DNA from: Tubulanus polymorphus
Lineage: Eukaryota > Animalia > Nemertea
Direction of reading: 5' to 3'
Assembly (NCBI RefSeq): GCF_964204645.1
Contig: NC_134031.1
Span: 11,224,088 to 11,288,087, forward strand
DNA: 64,000 bases
Translations under genes and position numbers: made by a program
In this document: positions 46,527 to 64,000 of the stretch, piece by piece
How positions within the stretch are numbered: position 1 is the first letter of the stretch
Layout of the letters: the number at the start of each line of letters is the position of its first letter
Notes under the pieces: generated by a model
Databases searched by the model: none
Seen by the model: only the letters and a program-made list of their open reading frames with translations
Told to the model about the DNA's origin: nothing

Positions 46527-47106
46527 ACATATATAATTTGCGACCAGTCACCGTAGATTTCGAGTTTATCCTCCAGAAAAAAACCCAACTTACACTAATG
46601 TATCTAGATAATATCATAAGGCCACCACAAAATAATTGTCTGTTTGCTGTAACCCGAACGATCCGACTTCAAAGGCATCGAGTGAAAATATTTTTTCTGG
46701 GATTCATTGAAATAAATTTTATTTCCGACAAAAAACGGCCGACCGACCCACTGCTGGTCTATGCGCTCCATATGTCTGTACTCAGTGTTTATCAATGCAT
46801 TTGTTTGATTTAGAACAAGTGGATGATGCTACGGATGACATTAAAACAATAAAATTATTCTTGAAATACATTGTATAGGTTTTTAGACACATTTCCGGAC
46901 GGTGTTGTCATATCGCGGAAAGACGAAATCGCGGAATTTTCCAAAAACGCGGAATTTCTTCATTTTTACTTTAAATAGTAAACGGGTTTTCCCACGGGGA
47001 TACCCACTGTCGGACAGGGGACCGGACCGATCGATGCAACGACTTAGGTTCGAATCCCATTATTTGCAGGCAATTTTATATGGAATTATTATATTACGAT
47101 ACCGTT

Positions 47107-47490
47107 AGTAATAGGGGTAATGGGCTTTCAGATCAAAGGTCGAAGGGTCGAGCTCGTAAAAAAATGAAAATAACAATAATTTACAGTTGAATTAGTCGTG
47201 CACACTCCTAATTCAACTGTAAATTATTGTTATTTTCATTTTTTTACTCACTCACCCCTTCAACCTTTAACCTGAAAGCCCATTACCCCTATTACTCTTA
47301 AAATATTCATATAAATGAATAACATTTAAATCATTGAACTTCTAAAATCTATTTTAATAAAAAATTTAGTATTAAAATGGAAGCAAATAAGTACTACTGT
47401 CCAACATGTAATATCAATGTAGATAAATCCCAAAAAGCAAGACACAATAAAACTAAAACACATTTAGAGAATAAATTGAAACTAGAATAT
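47107..47490 (+). repeat. Left terminal inverted repeat (384 bp), containing a 190-bp hairpin (47107-47296) and the first 38 codons of polB
   Basis: Reverse complement of 63169-63552, with 2 mismatches by manual comparison (47199, 47350). Confidence 0.95.
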
Positions 47491-47766
47491 AAAGATGATA
47501 TATTAGAAACTAAATTAGAAGAATTAAAGAATGAAAAAGAAACATACAAATGTGATACATGTAATCAATCATTCAGTGATAAAAGATATTATAAAGAACA
47601 TTTAAAATCTATAAGTCATATTAGAAATAAGAATAATGATATTTTAGGTGAAGATTATTTTGATAATGATAACGATAAGAAACAGAAGACAATTAAAAGC
47701 ATAAAAAATAAATTAAACAATAAAAGACCATACATGGAAGATGTAAGAAATTATATTAATTCATAA
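47377..47766 (+). pseudogene. N-terminal C2H2 zinc-finger segment of pPolB, separated by a premature TAA
   Basis: CPTC..H..H and CDTC..H..H fingers. After the TAA the frame stays open for 40 codons and runs into the 47887 ATG. Confidence 0.8.
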
Positions 47767-47886
47767 GATAATAAAAAAGATATAGAGATAACCGAAGCAT
47801 TTAAAAGTGATATTGGTCCAGCAGCTATCGAGTTTAAATTTCATAAAGGAAAAACATTAGAAGAAAATAAAAAACATTTAGAAAAT

Positions 47887-50800
47887 ATGAAAGAAATAAT
47901 AAAAATAATAACTGATGTTGAATATCCTAAAATAAGTATATCTTCTAAAGTAAAGTTTATAAAATCTGAAGATAAACCAATATATAATATAAATTCTCAT
48001 TCACAACATATTATATCAAAACAACATATAGATGATAAATTAGATAAATGTTATAATGAAGTAAAAACTAAAATAGAAGAGAAATATTTTGAAGGATCTG
48101 GTTTAATATTTGATGAAATAATATTTATAACTTTACATGTTTATAACACAAAATATAATAAGTTAACTAAATCAAAACCAATAGATGAAAATAATGTATC
48201 ATATTATAAAGATGAGAGTATAAATGGAACAAGTTATATTAAACTACCATTTAAAACTAATGCTGTAATAAATGTACAAAATTTTGATGATAAATGTTTT
48301 CTATGGGCTATAATAAGTTGTTTACATCCTGCAACTTATAATATTTGTAGATTAACTCATTATAAACCATTTGAAAATAATTATAAGATAGATAAGTATC
48401 CTGTTATAATTAAAAACATCCCAAAAATAGAAAGAGATAATAATATAAAGATAAATGTATTTGATTTAATCAAATTACCAAATACAAAAGGTAACAACAT
48501 AAAACATTATACATTAGAACCTTTATATCTATCAAAAGATTATGATTCAAACGATGTTATAGATATACTATATTATGAGAATCATTATATGTGGATTAAA
48601 CAAATCGATTTATTTTTTAAATCAGAAAATGATCACCATAAAATATATCTTTGTAGAAAATGTTTACATAGATTCAGTAATGAAAGTACGTTATTAAATC
48701 ATAAACAATTATGTGAAAATCATGATTATTGTAAATTAGTTTTACCAAATGAAAAAGATAAAATATTAGAATTCAAAAAATATGACTACAAAAATAAAGT
48801 ACCATTTGTTATATATGGAGATTTTGAATCATTAAATAAAGAACTAACTGATCAAGATAGAAAAGATATATATTATAAAAGAAAGAAATTAAATTCTAAT
48901 GAAAATGATTTTTCAGATGAACCACCAAAAACAAATACTATTAAAAAGATTCATCAATCAGCTGCTGCTTTCGGGTTATATATAAAATCTGATTATCCAG
49001 AACTAATTGAAAGTGAATATTATGATTATAGAAATGAAAATGTTATCAATCATTTTTGTGACTTATTAATTGAATATGAAATAAGATTTAGTAAATTATT
49101 GAATACAAATATAGAAATTATAATGACAGAAAAAGATAAAGAAGAATTTGCGTTTGCAGATAAATGTTATTATTGTGGAAAGATATTTAATTATAAAGAT
49201 AAAAAAGTAAGAGACCATGATCATTTGAACGGAAAGTTTAAAGGCGCTGCACATGAGAATTGTAACTTACAAGCTAAGAAAATTAACTTTGTACCAGTTA
49301 TATTTCATAATCTATCAGGATATGATGCACATTTATTTATCAAACAGTTATGCCATAAAATAGAAGAAATCAATAACGAAATAGAAATATTAAATTCAAA
49401 TAGATCAAAAGATAAAATACCAACTTATAAATTTAGAATGTTAGCTAAAACATCTGAGAATTATATATCATTCCAATTTGGGTGTTTAAGATTTATAGAT
49501 TCATATAGATTTTTAAATAGTTCATTAGATAACTTATCAAAATCATTAGTTGATGATGAATTAAAGATATTAAAAGAATATTACCCAAATAATGATGATT
49601 TTAAATTAATGAGATATAAAGGAGCAATTCCATATTCTTTCTATAAAAATCATAATGATTTTAAAATAACTGAATTATTGAAAGAACAATTTTATGATGA
49701 ATTAAAAAATGAATATGTTAAAGATGAAGTCTATAATAGAACATTGAATATTTGGAATCATTTCAAAATAGAAAATCATGGGCAATTAGTAGATTTATAT
49801 TTAAAATCAGATGTATTAATATTAACCGATATATTCGAAAGGTTTAGAGATGTTAACCTAAAATATTTCAATATTGATCCTTGTCATTGTTATTCATCAC
49901 CAGGATTCACATGGGATTGTGGATTAAAATTTACAGATATAAAAATGGATTTGTTAACAAATATAGATCAATTACTATTATTTGAAAAATCTATAAGAGG
50001 AGGTGTTTCAGGTGTATTAGGTGATAGATATTTCAATGTAAATGATAACCCCGGATATAAGTTATTATATATAGATGCAAATAATTTGTATGGTTGGGCA
50101 ATGATGGAACCACAACCTTATGGTGTATTTGAATTAACTGAAGTTTTACAGAATGAAAATAATGATAAATTTGATTGGAAGAAAAGAATCCTAGATATTG
50201 CAGATGATTCAGATATTGGTTACTTCTTTGTTGTAGATTTAGAATATCCTGAACATATTAAATTTAAATCTAGAAATCTAGCTTACTGTCCAGAACATAA
50301 AACTGTAACTCATGAAGAATTATCAAATTACCAAAAAAGAATTAAACCTGAAAATCATATTCATACAGAAAAGTTAATGGTAACTCAAGAAGATAAATAT
50401 AATTATGTAGTACATTATAGAATGTTAAAGTTTTATCTAAAACAAGGAATGATTCTAAAAAAAGTACATAGATATATTTCATTTAGTCAATCTAAATGGT
50501 TGGAAAAATGTATAGATTTTAACACCAAACAGAGAACTGAAGCTAAAACTGATTTCGAGAAAGATTTCTTCAAGTTAATGAATAATGCATTCTATGGTAA
50601 GACTTGTGAAAATATTAGAAATAGAAATGATATTGAGTTAGTTAGTAATGGTAAAAGAATTAGACATTTACAAACATATCCTAAGTTCATTGGTAACAGA
50701 ATATTTGATGAAAATTTAGCCGCAGTTAAGATGAGAAGAACATCAATGAAATTTAATAAACCAATCTATGTTGGCGCTTCAGTTTTAGAATTATCAAAAT

Positions 50801-51330
50801 TACTAATGTATGAATTCTATTATAATGTATTACAACCACTTTTTGGAGAAAAACATATAGAAATATTATATTTTGATACAGATTCTTACATATTAAAGAT
50901 AAAAACTGATAACATAACTGATGATTTAAAAACATTAAAACATCATTTCGATTTTAGTAACTATCCTAAAAATCATGAATTGTTTAGCAATGATAATAAA
51001 AAAGTTCCCGGTAAATTCAAAGATGAATTAGGCGGTGAAGAAATGATTGAATTCATAGGTATTCGATCTAAAATGTATTCATATAAAACTAAAGAACATG
51101 AAGCTAAAAAGTTAAAAGGAATAACCAAAAGTGTAGTAGAAAAGAATATTCATTTCAAAGATTACATAAATTGTATATTCAATGAAGAAGTTAGAAAACA
51201 TAAAATGAGATGTTTAAGATCTGAGTACCACGAAATGTTTATTGAAGAAATAGAGAAGATAAGTTTGAATCCATTTGATGATAAACGATATATATTAGAT
51301 GATGGTATACACACAGTCGCGTATGGTTGA
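47887..51330 (+). CDS. polB: Protein-primed family B DNA polymerase (ancestral ORF 47377-51408; TGA at 51328 is probably TGT>TGA)
   Basis: Exo motifs YGDFES, FHNLSGYD and FIDSYRF. Pol motifs YIDANNLYGWAM, KLMNNAFYGK and YFDTDS. Endonuclease VII-like insert CYYC..RDHDHLNG..AHENCN. N-terminal DKCFLWAI...HYMWI. Confidence 0.97.
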   Translation: MKEIIKIITDVEYPKISISSKVKFIKSEDKPIYNINSHSQHIISKQHIDDKLDKCYNEVKTKIEEKYFEGSGLIFDEIIFITLHVYNTKYNKLTKSKPIDENNVSYYKDESINGTSYIKLPFKTNAVINVQNFDDKCFLWAIISCLHPATYNICRLTHYKPFENNYKIDKYPVIIKNIPKIERDNNIKINVFDLIKLPNTKGNNIKHYTLEPLYLSKDYDSNDVIDILYYENHYMWIKQIDLFFKSENDHHKIYLCRKCLHRFSNESTLLNHKQLCENHDYCKLVLPNEKDKILEFKKYDYKNKVPFVIYGDFESLNKELTDQDRKDIYYKRKKLNSNENDFSDEPPKTNTIKKIHQSAAAFGLYIKSDYPELIESEYYDYRNENVINHFCDLLIEYEIRFSKLLNTNIEIIMTEKDKEEFAFADKCYYCGKIFNYKDKKVRDHDHLNGKFKGAAHENCNLQAKKINFVPVIFHNLSGYDAHLFIKQLCHKIEEINNEIEILNSNRSKDKIPTYKFRMLAKTSENYISFQFGCLRFIDSYRFLNSSLDNLSKSLVDDELKILKEYYPNNDDFKLMRYKGAIPYSFYKNHNDFKITELLKEQFYDELKNEYVKDEVYNRTLNIWNHFKIENHGQLVDLYLKSDVLILTDIFERFRDVNLKYFNIDPCHCYSSPGFTWDCGLKFTDIKMDLLTNIDQLLLFEKSIRGGVSGVLGDRYFNVNDNPGYKLLYIDANNLYGWAMMEPQPYGVFELTEVLQNENNDKFDWKKRILDIADDSDIGYFFVVDLEYPEHIKFKSRNLAYCPEHKTVTHEELSNYQKRIKPENHIHTEKLMVTQEDKYNYVVHYRMLKFYLKQGMILKKVHRYISFSQSKWLEKCIDFNTKQRTEAKTDFEKDFFKLMNNAFYGKTCENIRNRNDIELVSNGKRIRHLQTYPKFIGNRIFDENLAAVKMRRTSMKFNKPIYVGASVLELSKLLMYEFYYNVLQPLFGEKHIEILYFDTDSYILKIKTDNITDDLKTLKHHFDFSNYPKNHELFSNDNKKVPGKFKDELGGEEMIEFIGIRSKMYSYKTKEHEAKKLKGITKSVVEKNIHFKDYINCIFNEEVRKHKMRCLRSEYHEMFIEEIEKISLNPFDDKRYILDDGIHTVAYG

Positions 51331-51437
51331 AATTTAGATGAATACTTAAAATTTAAAAGGGAAGAAGGGAAAGAAAAGGAAATAATGAACAGGATTATAA
51401 CGCGTTAATTCAGTTTTAATAAAGATATATATTATAA

Positions 51438-52289
51438 ATGGAGCCGGAACAATCACAAACTATCAATATTACAAATAGTGTTATAAATATATATCATAAA
51501 ACATGTTGCAAATGTAAAATAAGTAAGCCATTTACAGATTATTATAAACGTAAGATTCGTAAAGATGGTTTACGCCATAATTGCAAAAGCTGTTATAATC
51601 AGAATAATCAACAATATTATAGAGATAATATTGAAGCACGCAACGATAAAATTAAGCAATGGAAGGAAAATAATCCAGAACGCATTAAAGCATATCAAAA
51701 TAAATATCATAAAGAAAGATATCAAACAGATTTTAATCTTAAAATAAAACAATGTCTAGGTAATAGATTATCACAATTATTCAGTACACTATCTAATCAT
51801 TCAGTTACACTATCTAATTTATTGGGTTGTTCAGATGAATTTCTCAAATCATGGATTGTATATCAATTCAACGATAAAATGAATGAAAAAAACTATGGTG
51901 AATACTTTCATATTGATCACGTGTTACCGATATCTAAATTTAACATGAATGATGAACACAATCAGAAATTAATTTGATATTGGAAGAATCTAAGACCTCT
52001 TGAAAAGAAAGAAAATCAAATCAAATCTAATAAACTAGATTTTCAGTTATATTTGGATCAATTAGATAAAGCAAAGAAATTCATTGAATTTTGGAACAAT
52101 GAACCAAATAATGAACAATATGTTGAAGAAATTGAAAAGATAAGTCTAAACCCATTTGATGATAAAAGATATATTTTAGATGATGGAATTCATACAGTTG
52201 CTTATGGTTGTAATTTAGATGAATACTTAAAATTTAAAAGAGAAGAAACAAAAGAGAACGAGATAATGAAAAGAATTCTAACGTGTTAA
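51438..52289 (+). pseudogene. HNH endonuclease (giant-virus/phage-type, N-terminal CxxC..CxxC) fused in frame to a duplicate of the PolB C-terminus; one internal TGA at 51975
   Basis: KTCCKCKISKP..KDG..CKSC and LGCS..QF..MNEKNYGEYFHIDHVLPISKF..*YWKNLRPLEKKENQIKSNK. Same frame as ORF 52053-52289. Confidence 0.85.
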
Positions 52290-52318
52290 TCAAATTTTAA
52301 TAAAAATATGTATTATAA

Positions 52319-52614
52319 ATGGAGAGTAAACAAGCACACAGTGAGAACAACAAATTATTTCTAGATAGAATAAAAGATACTACAAATGTAAAATCTGTAG
52401 ATTATAAATTCAAAAAGTTAACAGAATTAACAATCCATAAGAAATATCTAATAACAAATATTGATACAGTTACTAACAAATATGGAGAACATATTTACCA
52501 AATAGATTTCGTAGATTATCAAGTGAAGATCTAGAAGAATTATGTTCTGGAGATTTCTATTTCGTATACAAAGGTAAGAATGAAAAAGGTCACCATGAAA
52601 TAGATTTCGAATAA
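52319..52614 (+). pseudogene. Small hypothetical protein, frameshifted
   Basis: ..KLTELTIHKKYLI..TNKYGE, then the alternate frame YLPNRFRRLSSEDLEELCSGDFYFVYKG..FE*. Starts at TAAATG. Confidence 0.55.
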
Positions 52615-52631
52615 GAAAATATGTAAAATAA

Positions 52632-53387
52632 ATGGTAGAATTAAAAGGATACAGAATATTTGTAGATTCTAGAAAACTTACAAATTATAAATCACATAAT
52701 TCATTAGTACAATTAGATAGAGAATTCAAAAATTGTGTTGATTTAAAATTAGTTAATATAAGTTTATGTAATTCTTTTTACAATGTATCGGATAAAACTT
52801 TTGAACATAGAGGGTTTATGATTTATATGAGAAATAAAGATAAATGGTTTCATATCTTTTTAAAACCAGGATGATATAATTTAGAATCATTAGCGCAGGA
52901 AATTAATAGAAGAGCTCGGTTGAAAATCGGGGGCACTTCTGTATTTGAAATTAAATTTAATAAAATTGATAGTACTAATAAAATTAGAATAAAGATATCT
53001 AATGAACAACATAAATTTATGGTAAACAAACCACTGGCTAAAATGTTAGGAATTAAACCGCTTACAGTTACTGGAAACGCAGAAGGCAGCTCAAATATAA
53101 TACCTTTTACGCACTTTTATATTTATTGCAATTCAATCGAGCCTACAAAAACTTTCGAAGCGACTAAAGAAACAATTTGTAATTCTAGGATACTAAATAT
53201 TTTACCGCTGAAAAATGTTAAACAATTTGGAACGCAAATAAATTATAATTTAACAGAATGTGATTTTAAACCTTGCATTCCTAAATTTAATAATTTTAAA
53301 TTAGAAATAAGAAATCACAATGGTTATTTAATTGATTTGAATAACTTTCCTGTAATTTATGAATTAATTATAAGATGTAAAGAGTAA
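52632..53387 (+). pseudogene. Minor capsid (penton, single jelly-roll) protein, one internal TGA at 52872
   Basis: IFVDSR..LVNISLCNSFYNV..PG*YNL..FYIYCNSIE..ILPL..LEIRNHNGYLIDLNN pattern typical of Polinton/PLV mCP. The two ORFs share a frame. Confidence 0.8.
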
Positions 53388-53403
53388 TTTTTTCATTATA
53401 TAA

Positions 53404-53759
53404 ATGAATATAACTGTTGGCCCGAGTATATGTTTTGGGTTTGATTTTAAACATGAGAAAGAAATGAAATTTAACATTAATGATGTAATTACACATATCA
53501 AAAATATTGCATTTTCTAATGAAACAACATTTGAGTATGAAACAACAATAGATAAAGAAACTTTAAATGTAAAAAGATTACTAATTTAATTAGAGAATCT
53601 TTAAGATTTTATGAATTAGATGAAGATTTTATCATCGATGATATTAAAAAAATAATAATTGAAATATATACAAATGAAACTAGTAATGAAATAAATGTTG
53701 AATTAATCATAAATAAGATAACTAAATATTTTGATGATAGTAATTTTTTTGATAAATAA
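53404..53759 (+). pseudogene. Hypothetical protein, frameshifted near 53575
   Basis: ORF 53404-53589 continues in another frame (KITNLIRESLRFYELD...FFDK*) up to the next ATG. Confidence 0.5.
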
Positions 53760-53980
53760 ATGAGTGATAATAAGTGGATAATAACTGGATTATATAATGG
53801 CGCATTACTATCAGTTGGAACTGTTGGTTATTCAATGGTATTAAAAAAGTATTCAAAATGGGAAGTGTTAATGTTGATAGATTTGATATAAATGATATCT
53901 TAAAATTAACGTTAGCAGTTACTTTATCTAATTTAACTATTGATTATTTAGAAAAACAAAAATATATTCCTCCCATATAA
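53760..53980 (+). pseudogene. Small hydrophobic putative virion protein, frameshifted
   Basis: MSDNKWIITGLYNGALLSVGTVGYSMVLKK / VFKMGSVNVDRFDINDILKLTLAVTLSNLTIDYLEKQKYIPPI*. Preceded by the TAATTTTTTT..TAAATG motif. Not in the ORF track. Confidence 0.55.
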
Positions 53981-53985
53981 ATTCA

Positions 53986-54007
53986 TAATTTTTTTGCTAA
54001 ATAAATG
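53986..54007 (+). promoter_or_regulatory. Example of the conserved TAATTTTT(TT)-N-TAAATG start/promoter motif of the structural gene block
   Basis: TAATTTTTTTGCTAAATAAATG here and identically before 54447. Variants precede 53404, 53760, 54898, 56300 and 57906. Confidence 0.6.
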
Positions 54008-54427
54008 GCTTCTGCAATTATAACTATTATAGGATCAGCAATTGTTAACGCTTTGGCATTTACTGGTGGTGGTTATTTATTTAAGCATATTGATAAAAAT
54101 AGTTCATTAGGAGAACAAAGAAGACATAACTTAGCGTTAGAGAAATATAATAAAGCTGCAGAAGAATATAGAGAAAAGAGACAAAACTATATGGATTACA
54201 TCAATAAAGAATTATATGATCAGAAGATTTCACATAGAGATTTTCAATCAGTTGATGATGCAATGAGTTTATATAACGCGGTAACCAATAAAGAAAAATT
54301 ACATCTATACAAACCTAAATTATCAGATTATTATACCCCAAGTAAAGAACAACAGAAATATGAAATAATATGGATTTTAGGTGGAACTGTTATTGTTATA
54401 TTTGTTGCTTATAATTTTACTAATTAG
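54005..54427 (+). CDS. Hypothetical protein with hydrophobic N-terminus, coiled coil and C-terminal TM helix
   Basis: Intact 140-aa ORF with the structural-class upstream motif. Confidence 0.75.
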   Translation: MASAIITIIGSAIVNALAFTGGGYLFKHIDKNSSLGEQRRHNLALEKYNKAAEEYREKRQNYMDYINKELYDQKISHRDFQSVDDAMSLYNAVTNKEKLHLYKPKLSDYYTPSKEQQKYEIIWILGGTVIVIFVAYNFTN

Positions 54428-54446
54428 TAATTTTTTTGCTAAATAA

Positions 54447-54881
54447 ATGGTAGATAAAGTTGATAGTATTGATATTATTCCTCATGATATAAATAAAACT
54501 AAATTAAAAACATATTTAGAAAAACAAATATTAGAATTTGAAAGTGACTTAAAGATAAAAAAGAAAAAATATTTAAAAAGTAAAATTATATATTATCTTA
54601 TTATCAGTGGTTCAGTTACAATTAGTTCTGTAATAACATTTTTAGCAATATTCAGTCCATTAACACCTTTAGCTATATCAATTGGTGTGTTAGGATTAAG
54701 TTCAAGTGTTTTAACCGGAATAAGTTCAAAATTGAATATAAAAAGTAATAAAGAAAAAATTAAAACTAATATAAAAGAAATTAATAAATTAAAGAATACA
54801 CTAGATTATATAATAAGTTTAAATGGTCATATAACAGTTGAAGAACAAGACAAATTATTAAAAGAATTAATAAATTATTAA
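54447..54881 (+). CDS. Hypothetical two-TM membrane protein
   Basis: Intact 144-aa ORF with a central hydrophobic hairpin flanked by basic coiled coils. Confidence 0.7.
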   Translation: MVDKVDSIDIIPHDINKTKLKTYLEKQILEFESDLKIKKKKYLKSKIIYYLIISGSVTISSVITFLAIFSPLTPLAISIGVLGLSSSVLTGISSKLNIKSNKEKIKTNIKEINKLKNTLDYIISLNGHITVEEQDKLLKELINY

Positions 54882-54897
54882 TTTTTTAATTATATAA

Positions 54898-56283
54898 ATG
54901 GTAGATAGTTTTCCAAAAGCTTTCCAATATAATAAATCAATTAAATATAATATTCCAGCAATAGATTTTAATAAAGATATTACATATAGAAATAAAGTTT
55001 TAGATTCAATAACTAATTTAGAAATTTATTTTACTGAAACTAATAATTTTAATGCAAAGGAAAATATATTTCATGTACATTTAATTAATTTTTAAAAATT
55101 GAAAGATGAAAAACAATGGTTATTAAAATCTAATATGAAGTATTGGCAGAACCAATTAAATTTTGCTGTTTATTGTGCAACAACAGGATGTGGAATAAGT
55201 TGGAATGATCATTTGAATAATTCTAAATATAAATTAATTCAAAGTTTATTTAGATTTCATACATACTTTCAAATCAGAATAATATTAAATGAATTAGAGT
55301 GTGCTTTACCAGGATCAAGATATTTTAAAGAATTAGATAATAATATTAATTTATCTAAGTTTTATAAAATTTGTAATGAATTTAATATAGATATAAATAA
55401 TTCTGATTTTAGAACAAAAATTGGAACAATAAGATCACTTCCTTGCCCTAAAAAGATTGCAGAATATTGTGCACTTCCCATACCATCTAATAGTTTTTAT
55501 AATATCTATAATAATAAATTAGGTTATGGTAGAATAGAAACAAAGGATTTAGAAACATTAAATTTCAATAAATTACCGAAATTTTATGATCATTTAAAAC
55601 AAGAAAACAATAATGGTTGGGTTTATTTTATTTTAGAAAATAGTGAAGGTTTTACTAAATCAGGTATAGAAAGAATAAATCAATCAATTAGAACTTATTT
55701 GATATGTATTCTAGGTGCGCAAGTTGAAACAAGATCACCAATAATTGGAAATTTGAATACATCATTCGATACACAAAAACAATTTAAAGTTTTATTTAAT
55801 GATTCCATACATAATGATAAAAATAGATCAATTCCAGAAAACATTATAAGATATCAAAATTATTTAGATAAATCACATATTAGATTAAATTATTGTATAG
55901 GCCCTAATCTATTAATTATTTCTAATGATTTAGTATTAAAGATGGGAAATATAATTGGTTATAATAATCTAATTAAAACTGCAACAATAAATAATTCATT
56001 TGGATTAAATGATATAAATAAAAAGATTATCACTGCTCCAAAATTAATGGAAGGTGAAAAAAATAAAAAACACATTCAATCAACTGAAACTAAAACTAAA
56101 AATATTAAATTAAATAATGATTCTAAAATAAAAGATTATAATACATCAGAAAATATAAAAACTGATATTATTCAACATGATATAATTAAACTAAATGATG
56201 ATAATAAATCCCATGAAAATACTAAATTAGCTATAACTTGTATTGGAATTGTAATCGGAGGAATATTATATTTTAAATTTTAA
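54898..56283 (+). pseudogene. Hypothetical Polinton protein (WQNQLNFAVYCATTGCG motif, C-terminal TM), one internal TAA at 55093
   Basis: ORFs 54898-55095 and 55099-56283 share a frame. Confidence 0.7.
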
Positions 56284-56299
56284 TTTTTGTATTATGTAA

Positions 56300-57889
56300 A
56301 TGGCAGAAGGTGGAGAAGGTTTTCCAATGGATCCTTTTGGTGATGAACCCGGTATAAGTGATGAACCACAACCTGATTTTAATGAAACTAATATTGATAA
56401 TGATGATGAATCAGCATATAATTCTAATATAGCAGATAGTGGTTCTAAAGTCCCATCAACAGATGAATTTGATAGAAGAACTAGATCGAGAATACCTGCT
56501 GAATATGAAAATCAAGGTTTAAAAAAGGAAGATTTAGAAAATATTAAATTTATATATGAATTTCAACATGTATTTAAAGAATCTGGATATAATATAAATG
56601 ATAGAGGCGCTAGACTTTTAGTACAAGAATTAAAATCTTTAGATGGTGAATATTATTATCGTTTGAAAGATGATTATTATATTGATATCTCTTATAAAAA
56701 AGAAGAAAAAATATTAGCAAAATCAACTTTGCTTAAGTCTGACTCATTACTATCTAGAATTAAAAGAATAAGAAATGGTAATGAAATAGAAGATGTAACA
56801 CAAGAAGAAATTTATAAAAATGAAAGAGTATTTAAACAAAGAATCAATAAATTATTTGAAACAATCGATAATAATTTAGAAACAGAAATGGAAGAGAATA
56901 GAAATCGATTAGATAGATTAAGATCTTCAACACCCGAAACATCTAGAAGAGATATTCAACAAATTGATAAGGATTCAAATCAATTAAATTATGGTAAAAT
57001 AATTGATACAATGAATTCATTTGAAGAAGATATGATTAGTATTTTAGATACGCCCGTTACTGAAACTGGAATAAATCGAATACAATCTTTACTAGAAAAA
57101 GGAATACTTGATTTAACTGATGAAGAATTAGAAGCATTTCCTGAACAAGCACGTAGAGAAATTAAAGGTATGCAAGAATCGGCTGGTGAAATTGCTAATA
57201 TTAAGATGAGATTTTCTAAAATAACCATGTTAGAAAAAGAATTAACTGATGCAAATGAAGAATTAAAACAATTAGAATTAAATAGAGATCTTTAATTAAT
57301 CGAGGAAGCTGATTATGAAAGCAGAAAGTTAGCTTTAGAAAAAGAAATAGATGATTTAAAATATAACAAAGAATTACAGGAAAAAGAAAGAGATACATTA
57401 TTAAAATCATATGATCTTAATCATATTGAAAAATTAAAAGTTATTTTTAAAGATTTGTTGATAAAACCAGATTCTAGAATATCATTGAAAGATAGAATAA
57501 AGTTATTATTTAAATTAGAAGGAATAACAATTCTTTCAATTCTAACAGCTGTAACTATGTTATTTACAACAATAGGTTTAGCTATATCAAATGCTTTGAA
57601 ATCTACTCCTACTCCCACTCCCAATAAACCAGATAAACCTCCAGATAATAATTCTATACAAGATAAAGTTAAGGATGGTTTAAAGAAATTAGCAAAATAT
57701 TTATGGGAACTATCTAAAAAATCTGCTGCAGCATTGCCAGGAGTTATTGCATCAATTGTTGGTTTTATATTGAAATCTGCAGGAAACATTATTAACTTTG
57801 CTGCTGAACATATTATTTTATTTTTAATTACAGTTGTAAGTGCTATTATTTTTGGGTTAGTAAACATGATATCAAAAATAAATAATTAA
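56300..57889 (+). pseudogene. Acidic/coiled-coil protein with C-terminal hydrophobic helices, one internal TAA at 57293
   Basis: ORFs 56300-57295 and 57455-57889 share a frame and the gap is open. C-terminus EGITILSILTAVTMLF...AAALPGVIASIVGFIL. Confidence 0.7.
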
Positions 57890-57905
57890 TTTTTTTGTTA
57901 AATAA

Positions 57906-59153
57906 ATGAGTGGGAGTTATATCAATCCTTCTAAGAATCATAGAATATCTAATGCTATTAAAGCAGAAAGATCACATCGTATAATTACTCATAACCCTTC
58001 AAATATTAATCCCGATGAAACTTTATACGTTAGAATCCCTCGATTAACACAAAATACTTTTTATGTTCCAAATAGTATTTATTTATCGGCCGATATAAAA
58101 GTAATCGGTAATAATAATAATTATGTTGTTGATAATGTTGGAAGATATTTGATTTAAAAGTTAACAATAAAAATTGGTCCAGAAACAGTTTTCTCATTAG
58201 ATGATTATAATTTATTTATGCATTATAAAGATTTATGGTTAACTAAAGAAAATAGAAATAATATGATATTTCAAGGCATCCAATCAGAAAACCAAAATAA
58301 ATTAAGATCAGAAGCTAATAGCGCAATATTAACTAATGCTGTAGATAAATTGATAAAAAGTATATATGGAAGCAAATATAAAATTCCATTAGATTTTGAA
58401 TTGATAAATAATAATGCACCTTTATATAAATACGCAATTCAAGAAGACGTTATATTCGAAATAACATTTGCTCCTGTAAATGAAATTGTATTATCTAGCG
58501 TTGTTAAAGATATGAGTTATAAATTATCGAATATATGTTTAGAATATGATACAGTAACTGATGAAAATATTTCAAGTATAATTCAAACTAAATACAATCA
58601 AGGATTTTCATTATTATATGATTATATTGATAAATTTAAAACCGTAACTATTAATGCAAATGATGAAATAATTAATGAGAATATTAACTTCCCAAGAAGA
58701 TCTATTAAAGGCATATTAATATTTTTTACCATTGCAACATATACTAATGGCGCAATAAATGTTGATAATTATTATAATCCTGAAATAACAAAAGTAGAAA
58801 TAACTATCGAAGGAATAGCAAATAAAATATTTTGTCAAGGAATGAGAATGATTGATCAATGGCCAGAAATTAGAAAACATTTTATGAATGAAAAAGTAAA
58901 ATCATCTGACAATTGTAACATTAATCAAATTGATTATTATACCGGCAATAAATATGCATTATGGTTAGATTTTAGAACAACAGAGGATAATTCATTACAT
59001 GGTTCTGGAAAAAAACTACAAAACACTAAAGATGGAATACAATTATTCATGACAAAGAATAAAGGAATCAAAAATTTTAAAATGCACATTTATATTATAT
59101 CTGACGCGCAATTAAATATTATAAATTCACAATTAGATAGTGTTATGTATTAA
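57906..59153 (+). pseudogene. Major capsid protein (double jelly-roll), one internal TAA at 58155
   Basis: ~415-codon beta-rich protein (ITHNPSNINPDETLYVRIP..KIPLDF..YKLSNICLEYD..LWLDFRTTEDNSLHGSG..YIISDAQ) of MCP size and position. The two ORFs share a frame. Confidence 0.8.
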
Positions 59154-59185
59154 AATTTTAACTTTAATAAAAATTTATTATATAA

Positions 59186-60016
59186 ATGGAAGGAGGTAAA
59201 GTATATAAACATATTCCATACATCGATACACATGAAAATAATGATGGTTTATATTATGTAATACCTTGTAATATAGTTTTGATATTTGATCCTATTTTCA
59301 AAATTTATAAAACTAAACTAATAGAAATCGATAATAATAAAAGTGAAGTTGTTGATAATTTAAGTAATGTAATTGATAATAATGTAATACCTACAACATC
59401 TAATAATGTAATACCTACTACATCTAATAATGTAATACCTACTACATCTAATAATGTAATACCTACTACATCTAATAATGTAATACCTACTACATATAAT
59501 AATGTAATACCTACTACATATAATAATGCAATAATATTAAATGTTAGTAAAAATAGAAATTATTGTGATTATTGTAAAGGTGAATTTTCAAACGCTCCAT
59601 CAAATTGGAATAAACATATGAATACAAATTCACATATTACTAATGTTATAGAACGTGTTGGCAAAAAAGAATTGATAGAACACCCATTTAGATATGTTAC
59701 AAAATTTGTTTCAAATCAAAAAGTAAATGGTAAAGAATTATATAAAGATTTATTATTAGCAACACCTAATAAAGATGAATTAGATTTAACCGATGCTAAT
59801 GAAATATTAGAATCAAACACTGTAAATGAAATATTAGGAGCAAACACTAATAAAGATTCTATGAAACATAAAGTAGAAAATAATGATAACTTTGATTGGA
59901 TGAATAAGCATAACAATGAAACAACTATTGATGATGCGGTAAAAAAGGCGAAGAATAAGTACAAAAATAATGAAGAATTAGAAGAAGATTCGGTAGAGAA
60001 ATTGAGAAATTGTTAG
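59186..60016 (+). CDS. Hypothetical protein with (NNVIPTTS/Y)x6 repeat and a C2H2-like zinc finger
   Basis: Intact 276 aa; YCDYCKGEF..WNKHMNTNSH. Confidence 0.7.
   Translation: MEGGKVYKHIPYIDTHENNDGLYYVIPCNIVLIFDPIFKIYKTKLIEIDNNKSEVVDNLSNVIDNNVIPTTSNNVIPTTSNNVIPTTSNNVIPTTSNNVIPTTYNNVIPTTYNNAIILNVSKNRNYCDYCKGEFSNAPSNWNKHMNTNSHITNVIERVGKKELIEHPFRYVTKFVSNQKVNGKELYKDLLLATPNKDELDLTDANEILESNTVNEILGANTNKDSMKHKVENNDNFDWMNKHNNETTIDDAVKKAKNKYKNNEELEEDSVEKLRNC
59378..59521 (+). repeat. 24-bp coding tandem repeat x6
   Basis: AATAATGTAATACCTACWACATMT units. Confidence 0.9.
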
Positions 60017-60130
60017 GGGGGTCTGATAGTGAAAGTGATTAAGATATTAATTATATTCAACACAAATAATAATATTGGTTGAAAATTGTATAAAATAATA
60101 GTAAATAAAAAGGGGGTTTTAAGTATTTAA

Positions 60131-60209
60131 GGTATCTAATAGGGTATCAGGTATTAGGGTATCAGGTATTAGGGTATCTAATGGGGTATCAGGTATTAGG
60201 GTATCTAAT
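60131..60209. repeat. GGGTATC(AGGTATTA/TAAT) short tandem repeat between the convergent transcription units
   Basis: Repeated GGTATC/GGTATT motifs between the stops of 59186-60016(+) and 60228-60839(-). Confidence 0.75.
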
Positions 60210-60227
60210 ACATAGTCATATAAATAG

Positions 60228-60839
60228 TTATTTTATAAATTTATATTCATAGGGAAATTGTAGTCTCAGCAATAATTTTGAACCTTTATTATTCTTTAAT
60301 TTATTCATATATTCATCATGTAATTCAGTAGGTATAATTTGATTTTCTTCCAATGATTGTTGCATAGATTTTTTATCTTTGTTATAAAATAAAACTAGAA
60401 ATCTAATGTTTTCTCTAAAGTCTTTAACAATTGAATTATATTTTTGATTTAAAACCCAAGTTGTTATCCCAAAATGTCTCCCGGAGAAAGCTAGATAACA
60501 TAACTCACTTTCTCTAACTTTTGAATTATGTAAATTTGCGCAATCATCTATAATGAATAATGTATTTGATCCTTTATAAGTATCAATTGCTATTTTAATA
60601 CAATTATCTAAATTTTCTTTTACTGTTTTAGGATTTGATATAATAAACTTTTTCATCTTAACTATATCTCTATTATATGTTTTATTCATTTCATATCTAG
60701 GACAAAATAATATTATATTATCAAAATGATTCTTATAAATAGTTTCTAACAAATCTAATATGAAATGTGTTTTACCACAATTGGTTACTCCAGTTATTAA
60801 CATATTATGCGGTTCAAATATAAATAAATCTTTATTCAT
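60228..60839 (-). CDS. A32-like (FtsK/HerA superfamily) genome packaging ATPase
   Basis: Walker A GVTNCGKT, Walker B LFIIDD, SGRH motif and following VLNQ. Intact ORF. Confidence 0.92.
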   Translation of the reverse strand: MNKDLFIFEPHNMLITGVTNCGKTHFILDLLETIYKNHFDNIILFCPRYEMNKTYNRDIVKMKKFIISNPKTVKENLDNCIKIAIDTYKGSNTLFIIDDCANLHNSKVRESELCYLAFSGRHFGITTWVLNQKYNSIVKDFRENIRFLVLFYNKDKKSMQQSLEENQIIPTELHDEYMNKLKNNKGSKLLLRLQFPYEYKFIK

Positions 60840-61940
60840 TTATTCTTTTAATTTTACTAGATAAAATCCATTCATTAAATTTAACATCGTATCCTTTATA
60901 TTTCACCAAAGAATACTTTTTATCCTTTAAGAGTTTTTGTTTTCAATACTTTTTCTATTTTGTATTCTATTTCATCTGGATTTGGTACAAGTGATAATTC
61001 TTGTTCATAGAAATAACCTAATATTTCTTCATCTTTTAAATCTTCTAATTTATAAACAAAAGGTTTAGTTAATATTATCTTTTTAATCTTGAATATTTCT
61101 TCAGTAAAATTAGGGGTATAACCTTTATAAAATGTTTTTCTATATTTAGATATTCTTACGTGTTGTCCTATTTTAAATTTAGGTTCTCCGAAATCATGTG
61201 TAACAAACGCTCCATATAAATTATTCCAAACTATTTCTGAATTATCTTCTTTTCTAGCTTGTATAGGTTTCATATTTATAGAACTATGTTTAGAATTATT
61301 ATAACCTTTCACTAAATCATCTAACACATCGATATATTTATATGTTTCATTAGCAGTAAAATATTTCCACATTCTAGTTTTCAATGTTTTATTAAATCTT
61401 TCTATAATAGATGCTTTTTTATCTGAATGTGTTGAAAGATAATCTACATCGTTATCAGATTATAGTTTTTTTAAATGTTTGTTATAGAATTCCTTACCTT
61501 CATCAAATTGTATCTTATCTGGAATAGCTTCTTTAAATATAGATTTAAAAGCATTTGTCACTTCTATTCCAGTTTTATTTTTGATTGGAATTGACCATGC
61601 GTATCGACTGAATATGTCTATAACATTCAGTATCCAGAAATATCCTTTGTTGTATTCCTCTAAGTTCTTCATGTCAATTAAATCTGCTTGCCATTGTTGA
61701 TCAATATATGAAACCATCAATATATGAAACCATAACTTTTCTTGTTAAATAAGTTTTATCCATTTTCTTGTGGATTTGATATGTTGGTTGATTTTGTAAC
61801 CATGATTTCAATTCACTATATTTTATACCACCATTTTCTTTATCAGATTTAATTTTATTCCATAATTCTGAAACGTTAGAATATGATACTTCACTCTCTG
61901 GGTTATAATATTAATCTCTTAAATATTGTTCTTTTTTCAT
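60832..61940 (-). pseudogene. int: Retroviral-like (RVE, DDE) integrase with C-terminal chromodomain, disrupted
   Basis: MKKEQYLRD*YYNP..WQADLIDM..IQFDEGKEF..IIERFNKTLK..EYKIEKVL../KYSLVKYKGYDVKFNEWI. Stops at 61911 and 61460, a 16-bp tandem duplication at 61702-61733 and a frameshift at ~60920. Confidence 0.93.
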
Positions 61941-61946
61941 CTTATT

Positions 61947-62303
61947 TTAATCCATTAATAATAATTTACATTTAGTTTCAATGACTTTATGATTTGACTT
62001 TTTTTCTGGTATGATAGGTTTATCATCGGAATCATCTTTATCATCAGATTTGAATTTTGATTTATATATTACACTGGATAATATAATAACTGTTACTAAT
62101 CCAATTGTAATATATAATTTATAATTACTTCCTGCATTAGAAGAATTAGATGGATTATCATTCGAATCAATATCAGGTGATTCATTTATATCAGTTAATT
62201 TCTTTTTCTTAGCTTTTTTTAATTCTGAAGATCTTTTACCTAATTCTCTTGCCCATTTAATTTGTTTCTCGGATCTAGCCTTTTTCTTAACGCTATCACT
62301 CAT
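61947..62303 (-). CDS. Hypothetical basic protein with one TM helix
   Basis: Intact 118 aa with TAAATG start; KKARSEKQIKWARELG and LYITIGLVTVIILSSVIY. Confidence 0.65.
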   Translation of the reverse strand: MSDSVKKKARSEKQIKWARELGKRSSELKKAKKKKLTDINESPDIDSNDNPSNSSNAGSNYKLYITIGLVTVIILSSVIYKSKFKSDDKDDSDDKPIIPEKKSNHKVIETKCKLLLMD

Positions 62304-62739
62304 TTATTTTACTTAATTTTTGTTCTGATTCATTTTCTGTTTCGACGTTTGGTTGTAGTACATCTGTTTCGTTCTTACCTGATTTATATTCCATAGGCTT
62401 GATATTCGAAAATGTTATGACGCCAGTAGAAATTAATGTCATAACCGATCCTAATTGAAATGAAGCATATCCAACCCATTTTTGTAATTCAGTCATAACT
62501 AAGTAGTCATTTTTCAAATCACTATATAATTTATTTTCATCATCCATTGGTATTAACTGGTTACATAACTTAGAATAACATTTGATAATACCATTCGAAA
62601 TAGAATCATTTATTTTAGCTAATCTTGCCTCTTCATAAATCTTAAAATATTTTATTACTTTATCTGGTTTCATAACATCTAATTCTTGAAAAGTAATAGT
62701 CTTAGTTAAAAACTCTTTAGTTTTTCCACCGGCAATCAA
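62296..62739 (-). CDS. Hypothetical Polinton protein, 5' end degraded
   Basis: 147-aa open frame overlapping the next ATG. The frame extends upstream without an ATG. Confidence 0.55.
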   Translation of the reverse strand: MIAGGKTKEFLTKTITFQELDVMKPDKVIKYFKIYEEARLAKINDSISNGIIKCYSKLCNQLIPMDDENKLYSDLKNDYLVMTELQKWVGYASFQLGSVMTLISTGVITFSNIKPMEYKSGKNETDVLQPNVETENESEQKLSKINE

Positions 62740-63030
62740 TAGTTCTAGATGATGCTTACAATATAAATAGTATTCATAATCAATATTACAATTAACTTAT
62801 GCGTATGATTATGCCACGTCATCTGGTTCCGGCGCGCCTTTCTAGAATATTCTACACGTTTCTGATTATGATGTGTCATCTCTATTCAGAGTTCCAGCAC
62901 ACCTTTCTAGAATTTTCTCTACACGTTTGTAATATTATGTGTCATAATGTCTCGGCGTCATAGTAACAGCTGTAACAGCTGTGAATTTATAGATTTATTC
63001 CATAGCTCTGTACATTGAATGTATATAGGT

Positions 63031-63282
63031 TCAAATAGAATCATGTTCTAGTATAAACATCAGATCCTTGATATCAAATTCCTCAACGTATTGTTCATTA
63101 TTTGGATCATTATTCCATAATTCAATAAATTTTTTTCCCTTTGTTAACTGTTCTGAATATAACTGTAAATATTCTAGTTTCAATTTATTCTCTAAATGTG
63201 TTTTAGTTTTATTGTGTCTTGCTTTTTGGGATTTATCTACATTGATATTACATGTTGGACAGTAGTACTTATTTGCTTCCAT
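63031..63282 (-). CDS. Chimeric ORF: TIR-encoded zinc finger (PolB residues 1-38) fused to an HNH C-terminal remnant
   Basis: First 38 aa are identical to ORF 47377. The rest, LQLYSEQLTKGKKFIELWNNDPNNEQYVEE, matches FQLYLDQLDKAKKFIEFWNNEPNNEQYVEE at ~52041-52130. Confidence 0.7.
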   Translation of the reverse strand: MEANKYYCPTCNINVDKSQKARHNKTKTHLENKLKLEYLQLYSEQLTKGKKFIELWNNDPNNEQYVEEFDIKDLMFILEHDSI

Positions 63283-63552
63283 TTTAATACTAAATTTTTT
63301 ATTAAAATTGATTTTAGAAGTTCAATGATTTAAATGTTATTCATTTATATGAATATTTTAAGAGTAATAGGGGTAATGGGCTTTCAGGTTAAAGGTTGAA
63401 GGGGTGAGTGAGTAAAAAAATGAAAATAACAATAATTTACAGTTGAATTAGGAGTGTGCGCGACTAATTCAACTGTAAATTATTGTTATTTTCATTTTTT
63501 TACGAGCTCGACCCTTCGACCTTTGATCTGAAAGCCCATTACCCCTATTACT
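63169..63552 (-). repeat. Right terminal inverted repeat (384 bp), hairpin at 63363-63552
   Basis: Reverse complement of 47107-47490. Confidence 0.95.
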
Positions 63553-64000
63553 ACCGTTGACTGGCTGCCACCTGTAGAAGAAGTCAGAATCAAGTGAGGT
63601 GAAAGAGACCAGGCACCTAATGTCTATTTCTATTAGGCAAACTTCGGTTATCGAAGTTCATCGACTTTTTGAGAACTTCAGAAACGAATATTATCAGATA
63701 AATATTAAGCACGTTCGCGGTGTCGGACCGTAGTTGTAGATGGTTGCAAACATGAAATCCTACGACCAAACAAGTACCGGTTCAAATTCCTTTGAAATTA
63801 TTACAATTTTACGGCCGTCCAGTACCGGTACCAATGAGATCCAAATAATCAGCATAGGAACATATATGTTATAGCAGTCACAAAGTAAACATTAAAAAAA
63901 ACGAAACCATTTTATAATCTTTCATATCATTTAATTCTAAAAGATAAACCACATTATTTCGCTTATAACAACAATGTAGACACACAACACGCATGAACAA

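What the first reader, a model, noticed from the sequence alone, without database searches (positions are those of the whole stretch)
51242..52324. Intron-less homing-like HNH cassette that replaces the 3' end of polB with a recoded copy
Seen: ~200 bp (51242-51443) recur exactly 881 bp later (52123-52324) with no indels. The duplicate covers the last ~54 codons of PolB, its stop, the intergenic motif and the next ATGGAG, and an HNH endonuclease lies between the two copies. Over the 28 codons EEIEKISLNPFDDKRYILDDGIHTVAYG the proteins are identical, but 11 codons differ and all changes are synonymous. The upstream, in-use copy has the less AT-biased codons (GAG, CAC, GTC, GCG); the downstream copy fits the element's A/T bias. 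Established: free-standing homing endonucleases in fungal mitochondria (atp6/atp9) insert into conserved genes while supplying a cleavage-resistant replacement 3' end. Inference: a selfish HNH invaded a Polinton polymerase gene this way, so the downstream copy is the displaced native tail. This implies homing between co-replicating Polinton genomes; I know of no description of this in Polintons.
Basis: partly seen in the sequence, partly recalled or inferred. Interest (0 to 1): 0.9.

Follow-up and report, generated by a model that had tools for sequence, protein, structure and literature searches.

The report
Polinton polymerase tail swapped by endonuclease
In a virus-like mobile element (a Polinton), a piece from a sister lineage that carries a DNA-cutting gene has replaced the end of the polymerase gene and pushed the original end 881 bases downstream, which likely records a homing endonuclease invading a new site and is a layout so far described in fungal mitochondria.

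Summary
The duplicate is real: 84% identity over 216 nt at offset 881, and 11 of 28 codons differ, all silently. It lies in a 16.4-kb Polinton. In a same-species run at 94% likeness, depth is 237-394 over the polB body, 7-22 over the upstream tail plus HNH, and 148-355 from the downstream tail on; 66 reads join the polB body directly to the downstream tail. So the upstream tail plus HNH is foreign and the downstream tail is native. Corrections: the HNH is an old resident of this family, and relatives carry polB-HNH with one tail. The tail is a sister-lineage allele, not purposely recoded. The right join is a 13-nt microhomology that fuses the HNH in frame to the native tail. Both foreign parts carry stops in this copy. 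Giant-virus relatives of the HNH lie in group I introns. Best reading: one-sided homing (0.55); rival: passive template switch (0.35). Cleavage is untested. The scan noted the same layout before in another genome's viral polB (e1-3286570, unchecked).

The parts
47101..47106 (.). 6-bp target-site duplication, left (repeated at 63553-63558)
47107..47490 (+). left terminal inverted repeat, 384 bp, includes the first 38 codons of the zinc-finger/polB frame
   Evidence: 2 differences of 384 to the right repeat
47377..51408 (+). zinc finger plus protein-primed family B polymerase frame (pPolB2-like, endonuclease VII domain inside); in-frame stops at 47764 and 51328
51205..51241 (+). approximate left boundary of the foreign tract (homologous crossover inside polB, inferred); foreign letters seen at 51225-51231
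   Evidence: depth drop, and 50 of 63 reads differ at 51225-51228
51242..51437 (+). upstream, foreign polB tail and intergenic promoter-like motif
51438..52122 (+). HNH endonuclease gene (N-terminal zinc ribbon, D-H...N...N motif), in-frame stop at 51975-51977, own last codons missing
52123..52135 (+). right junction: 13-nt overlap that belongs to the native polB tail and matches the HNH's own 3' end at 11 of 13
52123..52318 (+). downstream, native (displaced) polB tail, in frame with the HNH, and its intergenic motif
52319..52603 (+). next gene of the recipient backbone (in-frame stop at 52532); homolog at L009 338-724
57906..59153 (+). likely major capsid protein, in-frame stop at 58155
60228..60839 (-). 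A32-like packaging ATPase
60920..61717 (-). rve integrase, in pieces
63074..63170 (-). 3' remnant of the recipient's resident HNH, joined to the right terminal repeat at a second short homology; followed by the 62673, 62303 and integrase genes as in L008
63169..63552 (-). right terminal inverted repeat

Best explanation
A roughly 900-bp piece from a sister Polinton lineage, made of that lineage's polB tail and its HNH gene, sits inside the polB 3' end of the abundant lineage and has displaced the native tail, likely through one-sided homing after the HNH cut the recipient's polB. Inferred steps: donor and recipient replicate in one nucleus; the donor's HNH, which normally lies right behind polB, breaks the recipient near 51225-51242; the left broken end invades the donor's homologous polB and copies its tail and HNH; because the two lineages have different genes behind polB, the right end finds no homology and rejoins at a 13-nt microhomology with the native tail. 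This gives a complete hybrid polB, an HNH fused to the stranded tail, and a destroyed target. The product then multiplied to several copies. The window holds a decayed copy. Shown: anatomy, polarity, donor-type gene order in relatives, junction homologies. Inferred: the break, its cause, and any later two-sided homing.
For: Polarity: X5 depth at 94% likeness 237-394 (50200-51200), 7-22 (51292-52110), 148-355 (52111-52656); 66 reads carry polB-body letters before 52123; joint 51224 to 52123 in 4 reads; same junction in X2 and X3 contigs. Exit from and return to the recipient lie within about 17-37 nt of each other, as expected if both ends come from one break. Donor-type order polB-HNH-62673-62303-integrase in L008 and polB-HNH in L009. 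Junction overlap 11 of 13. HNH catalytic D-H and N invariant in 101 of 101 aligned relatives and kept in the window protein; purifying selection vs L008 (dN 0.26, dS 1.11). 5 of 8 viral loci scanned have an Rfam group I intron overlapping the HNH end; best structural neighbours include a Bodo saltans virus 'intron encoded endonuclease'. An X1 contig is identical across 52061-52151 at depth 265, where 7 of 8 long pieces listed have depth 31-42. One-sided homing with microhomology junctions is reported for T4 (PMC2988022, passages); the same hybrid layout for fungal mobile ORFs (PMC3630166, passages).
Against: No enzyme data. The HNH is a standing gene of the family: core depth about 800 vs polB 600-750 at 80% likeness, 285 reads leave at 52135, so adjacency to polB existed before and needs no cutting. 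The cassette is rare (depth 7-22 against 237-394) and only one junction is seen. No tail duplication in 94 of 94 loci with a tail hit (61 have 1 kb or more behind it); only L008 and L009 among them are close relatives with DNA behind polB. A 12-of-14 match of this kind arises in 23 of 60 codon shuffles. Other short-homology joins not explained by homing exist: right repeat to HNH remnant, and 45 nt shared by the L008 HNH end and the polB interior. The X1 junction contig has only 29 letters right of 52122, under the tool's 31-letter bridging rule; in X5, 14 of 18 reads at 52103 differ from the window, so the junction is not shown there. Depth is not a copy count.
Confidence: 0.55

Rival explanations
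1. Passive template switching. During protein-primed replication a stalled strand left a recipient-type genome in polB, copied 900 nt from a donor-type genome and returned at a microhomology. The HNH rode along as the neighbouring gene and made no cut; the chimera then multiplied clonally.
For: Same anatomy and polarity. HNH already lies behind polB in relatives. Two further short-homology joins in this family. Low frequency and a single visible junction. Mosaic exchange is described as common in these viruses (10.64898/2026.10.13.758929, passages).
Against: The captured gene belongs to a family whose giant-virus members lie in group I introns, and the join falls just before the conserved C-terminal polB motif and removes the recipient-type sequence across it. 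The layout matches cases where the endonuclease is reported to drive mobility.
Confidence: 0.35
2. A long-standing mobile cassette (tail plus HNH) that travels as a unit between Polintons and always duplicates the tail.
For: Several different polB-tail-to-HNH junctions occur in same-species runs (joints 52310, 52323, 52332 and 52338 back to 51415-51495), which could be separate insertions. A GIY-YIG gene follows polB in L102.
Against: L008 and L009 have the HNH behind polB with no second tail; most HNH reads do not enter a tail and summed tail depth is about one per polB. What follows those other HNHs could not be read.
Confidence: 0.07
3. Assembly artefact, local tandem duplication, or an intron that splices the insert out.
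For: The family has very many similar copies in this species, which invites chimeric assembly.
Against: The tails differ at 24 of 162 nt, mostly silent, which a fresh duplication cannot give; an independent contig is identical across the junction; matching terminal repeats and a target-site duplication bound one element; no Rfam match in 51100-52500 and no 881-nt GT-AG cut.
Confidence: 0.03

Closest known systems
Mobile-ORF gene hybrids of fungal mitochondria (Allomyces macrogynus atp6; Glomus sp. atp6, atp9, cox2, nad3; PMC3630166, passages read)
   Same: Foreign C-terminal piece in frame with the resident gene, then an endonuclease ORF, then the native tail, which matches insertion-free relatives.
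   Different: Here the host is a nuclear Polinton polymerase gene, the enzyme is HNH (there LAGLIDADG or GIY-YIG), the donor is a sister lineage in which the HNH is a standing neighbour of polB, the HNH is fused in frame to the stranded tail, and neither expression nor cleavage is shown.
Free-standing homing endonucleases of T-even phages (seg, mob; intronless homing; one-sided events; PMC2988022, passages read)
   Same: Intron-less HNH gene next to a conserved replication gene; a junction with homology on one side and microhomology on the other, as reported for one-sided events.
   Different: T4 genes sit between genes without duplicating a gene end in the passages read; the nuclease domain is N-terminal in mob genes and C-terminal here; activity is shown there, not here.
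Group I intron-encoded HNH endonucleases of giant viruses (loci L004, L138, L140, L144, L145; Bodo saltans virus, PMC5871332, passages)
   Same: Same protein family, about 30-37% identity in most hits, same zinc ribbon and D-H...N...N motif.
   Different: No intron surrounds the Polinton gene.
Putative homing endonuclease genes listed in Polinton-like viruses and virophages (PMC12220804, PMC11296320, 10.64898/2026.10.13.758929; passages)
   Same: HNH or GIY-YIG genes near polB or other replicase genes, with homing proposed.
   Different: The passages read list the genes and propose homing; none describes a replaced gene end with donor, recipient and junctions. The HNH domain inside pPolB2 (10.1101/2023.08.22.554363) is a different thing: this polB has such a domain too (PF02945).

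Membership tests
Polinton/Maverick | terminal inverted repeats and 6-bp target-site duplication | tested here: met
   384-bp repeats, 2 differences; 6-bp duplication
Polinton/Maverick | protein-primed family B polymerase | tested here: met
   5362 homologs of residues 800-1147, some named DNA-directed DNA polymerase or carrying PF03175; Pfam on the window protein itself hit only PF02945
Polinton/Maverick | rve integrase and A32-like ATPase | tested here: met
   PF00665 E 4e-8, PF04665 E 6e-12; integrase in pieces
Polinton/Maverick | double jelly-roll major capsid protein | tested here: inconclusive
   Atlas look-alikes at 0.96-0.98 are viral; Capsid_NCLDV on 13-18% of members; recognition value low
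Polinton/Maverick | cysteine protease and minor capsid protein | tested here: inconclusive
   no Pfam hit among the 21 element ORFs scanned; no dedicated search
mobile-ORF gene hybrid (Allomyces/Glomus type) | foreign C-terminal piece in frame with the resident gene | tested here: met
   in this copy it carries a stop at 51328
mobile-ORF gene hybrid (Allomyces/Glomus type) | endonuclease ORF between the two tails | tested here: met
mobile-ORF gene hybrid (Allomyces/Glomus type) | downstream tail matches insertion-free alleles | tested here: met
   66 reads and contigs of X2, X3
mobile-ORF gene hybrid (Allomyces/Glomus type) | hybrid gene expressed; endonuclease drives mobility | not testable with these tools
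free-standing homing endonuclease | nuclease motif of a homing family, no intron or intein around it | tested here: met
   this copy has a stop at 51975
free-standing homing endonuclease | site-specific cleavage of alleles that lack it | not testable with these tools
   needs an enzyme assay
free-standing homing endonuclease | patchy presence and spread across backbones | tested here: inconclusive
   cassette in several copies but rare; HNH itself about one per element; backbones could not be phased
group I intron-encoded endonuclease | group I ribozyme core around the ORF | tested here: not met
   no Rfam match in window 51100-52500 or L008; core motifs absent from window, L008, L009

The most novel reading that the evidence does not exclude
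An HNH endonuclease descended from giant-virus intron homing enzymes lives intron-free in animal-type Polintons, cuts the polymerase gene of rival Polinton lineages in the same nucleus, and has been caught at the birth of a new homing cassette that now has homology on both sides to empty alleles. This would mean that Polintons co-replicate as free genomes and fight with homing endonucleases as phages do.
Probability: 0.35. Interest if true: 0.8.

Novelty: new variant of a known kind. Interest (0 to 1): 0.58.

Why it matters
Whether Polintons of eukaryotic nuclear genomes replicate as free genomes that meet, recombine and compete is open, and homing endonucleases have been proposed, not shown, to drive their replicase turnover. 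This locus supplies donor-type order, recipient allele, both junctions and a predicted target of about 40 bp, so the idea becomes a simple cleavage test. Even under the passive rival it is a base-resolved record of exchange between two lineages that differ at about 60% of silent sites.

Tried and rejected
No whole genome is held for this window, so sibling copies could not be read at full length. No RNA holder listed. Degenerate tail-motif scans of viral contigs found 0 matches and 0 in 7 loci: no close relatives there. Single-sequence fold of the L008 HNH failed (pLDDT 35); with 101 sequences pLDDT 90, but solved-structure searches gave only weak HNH-type rows (Foldseek best E 0.07; VIA-align best Z 4.1; sequence searches). 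Gene directly behind polB: of 52 ORFs scanned (from 85 distinct loci with 500 nt or more behind polB), 1 GIY-YIG by Pfam, plus the L008 HNH that Pfam misses, so a nuclease behind polB is not general. Repeats near HNH genes in viral loci looked at first like more tail duplications but are group I intron cores. A TGA-reassigned code was considered and dropped: breaks include other stops and most related reads have a sense codon at the two stops near the finding. Intron removal of the insert rejected. Look-ups of earlier findings by sequence and place were empty. One paper search returned nothing; PMC10448965 and PMC12721341 passages added nothing on tail replacement. No supplements were read.

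Full report
Observation. The repeat is real: 51242-51457 recurs at 52123-52338, offset 881, 84% identical without gaps. Over 53 codons dS is 1.17 and dN 0.048, so both tails come from polymerase genes that were under selection. The upstream tail is richer in G+C at third positions (13 of 52) than the polB frame (124 of 1121; p 0.003), though not significantly richer than the downstream tail (7 of 53; p 0.14). Three things were missed. The upstream tail has an in-frame stop at 51328. The downstream tail is in frame with the HNH, which therefore ends in polB sequence at 52289. A second HNH remnant lies at 63074-63170 on the minus strand.

Setting. The locus lies in a 16,446-bp element (47107-63552) with 384-bp inverted ends, a 6-bp target-site duplication, polB, A32 ATPase, rve integrase and a likely capsid gene: a Polinton. 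At least seven frames carry in-frame stops, so this copy is decayed.

Which tail is native. Raw reads of a same-species run (X5, about 12% read) were laid at 94% likeness. Depth is 237-394 along the polB body to 51200, 60 at 51201-51291, 7-22 from 51292 to 52110, and 148-355 from 52111 to 52656. Sixty-six reads match the downstream tail and carry polB-body letters before 52123; a joint from 51224 to 52123 is seen in 4 reads; contigs of X2 and X3 show the same. So the backbone on both sides is the abundant type, insertion-free alleles use the downstream tail, and the upstream tail plus HNH is the foreign piece. The foreign tract starts about 17-37 nt before the visible repeat (50 of 63 reads differ from the window at 51225-51228).

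Where the piece came from. The two closest relatives obtained as DNA with sequence behind polB, L008 and L009 (79% polB identity; near-identical to each other), have the HNH directly behind polB, with its own stop and one tail; in L008 it is followed by homologs of the 62673, 62303 and integrase genes. None of 94 loci with a tail hit has two tails (61 have 1 kb or more behind it; 137 loci examined). In X5 at 80% likeness the HNH core is as deep as polB (about 800 vs 600-750), the two tail positions together give about one tail per polB, and 285 reads leave the window at 52135 into letters that begin like the window's own right-end remnant. The HNH is thus a standing gene of the family under purifying selection (dN 0.26, dS 1.11 vs L008). 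Silent divergence is alike for tail vs tail (pS 0.59), window polB vs L008 polB (0.61), HNH vs L008 HNH (0.58) and HNH vs remnant (0.62): the donor is a sister lineage and no special recoding is needed.

Junctions. The left one lies in homologous polB sequence. The right one is 52123-52135, which belongs to the native tail and matches the HNH's own 3' end at 11 of 13. A match of that quality is common by chance in such A+T-rich DNA (23 of 60 shuffles); what counts is that the join falls on it. An X1 contig is identical over 52061-52151 at depth 265, and another covers 51501-51731 with 3 differences at depth 308, while 7 of 8 long pieces listed have depth 31-42. That suggests about seven near-identical cassette copies other than the window's. 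Caveats: the contig has 29 letters right of 52122, two short of the tool's bridging rule; depth is no copy count; X1 may be related to the window's source; and in X5 the junction is not shown (14 of 18 reads at 52103 differ from the window).

The enzyme family. The L008 protein has 31,759 relatives at E 0.001; D-H and N of the motif are invariant in 101 aligned sequences and present in the window protein. PHROGs places it with endonuclease VII/HNH. The model (pLDDT 90) matches giant-virus proteins including a Bodo saltans virus intron-encoded endonuclease; solved-structure matches are weak. In viral contigs, 5 of 8 loci scanned have an Rfam group I intron overlapping the end of the HNH, and at least one typed core motif lies at or just behind the end of an HNH in 12 of 12 loci, both motifs in 10. 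The Polinton gene has no intron. This raises the odds that it is a homing-type enzyme but does not show activity.

Mechanism. Best reading (0.55): one-sided homing. The donor's HNH breaks the recipient's polB near its conserved end; the left end copies the donor's tail and HNH; the right end, lacking homology because the lineages differ in gene order, rejoins by microhomology. Exit and return points nearly coincide, and the recipient-type sequence across them is lost. One-sided events with microhomology junctions are reported for T4 (PMC2988022, passages). Once formed, the cassette has homology on both sides to empty alleles and could home normally; its low share (depth 7-22 against 237-394) gives no sign of a sweep. 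Rival (0.35): a passive template switch, which gives the same product; other short-homology joins in this family favour it. A standing cassette that always duplicates the tail (0.07) is contradicted by L008 and L009; other tail-to-HNH junctions in the runs could not be followed. Artefact or intron (0.03) is rejected.

Comparison. The layout is that of fungal mitochondrial gene hybrids (PMC3630166, passages; the Allomyces paper itself was not read). HNH and GIY-YIG genes are listed in Polinton-like viruses and homing is proposed (PMC12220804, PMC11296320, 10.64898/2026.10.13.758929; passages); polB displacement by recombination is proposed for nematode Polintons with no mention of homing (10.1101/2023.08.22.554363, passages). 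Searches (listings, and passages of the papers named) showed no description of a replaced polB end in a Polinton; the library lacks most subscription papers and no supplements were read. The scan noted the same layout in a viral polB of another genome (e1-3286570); I could not check it and do not count it as support.

Verdict. Observation confirmed; interpretation partly supported; new variant of a known kind; interest 0.58. The structure and its polarity are well supported; the role of the endonuclease is the open, testable step.

Noticed in passing
window 63074-63180 (-): The right terminal repeat extends 38 codons into the polB zinc finger and joins the last part of a second HNH at a short homology, so this copy has lost most of its resident HNH while carrying a foreign one behind polB.
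   Followed up: partly
window 47107-63552: In-frame stops at 47764, 51328, 51975, 52532, 52872, 57293 and 58155, and a broken integrase, yet the terminal repeats differ at only 2 of 384; the element may have been defective before it inserted, or its ends were homogenised later.
   Followed up: no
L008 4772-4816 and 1504-1545: The end of the L008 HNH shares 45 nt (89%) with an insertion inside its own polB that close polB relatives lack; the HNH copy holds a 22-nt perfect palindrome.
   Followed up: partly
L009 338-724; L008 337-7154: Gene order differs between relatives: the 52319-like gene precedes polB in L009, and the 62673, 62303 and integrase genes follow polB-HNH in L008 but lie on the opposite arm in the window.
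   Followed up: partly
L004 2560-5841, L138 2237-7620, L144 3346-5706, L145: Viral contigs with many group I introns (in L004, L138 and L144 they split a giant-virus major capsid gene), several carrying this HNH family.
   Followed up: partly
L102 8439-9125, L103: A GIY-YIG endonuclease gene lies between polB and the integrase in a distant Polinton-like contig; no tail duplication seen.
   Followed up: partly
window 6300-43000: Host flank is a nested satellite: 31-bp and 155-bp arrays inside a unit of about 7.45 kb repeated several times.
   Followed up: no
window 59377-59533 and 60127-60209: A 24-bp coding tandem repeat (6.5 copies) in the 59186 gene, and short GGGTATC-type repeats between the converging arms of the element.
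   Followed up: no
window 52486-52488: Many same-species reads carry extra letters here (169 reads, 117), so the window's 52319 gene has a deletion relative to most copies.
   Followed up: no
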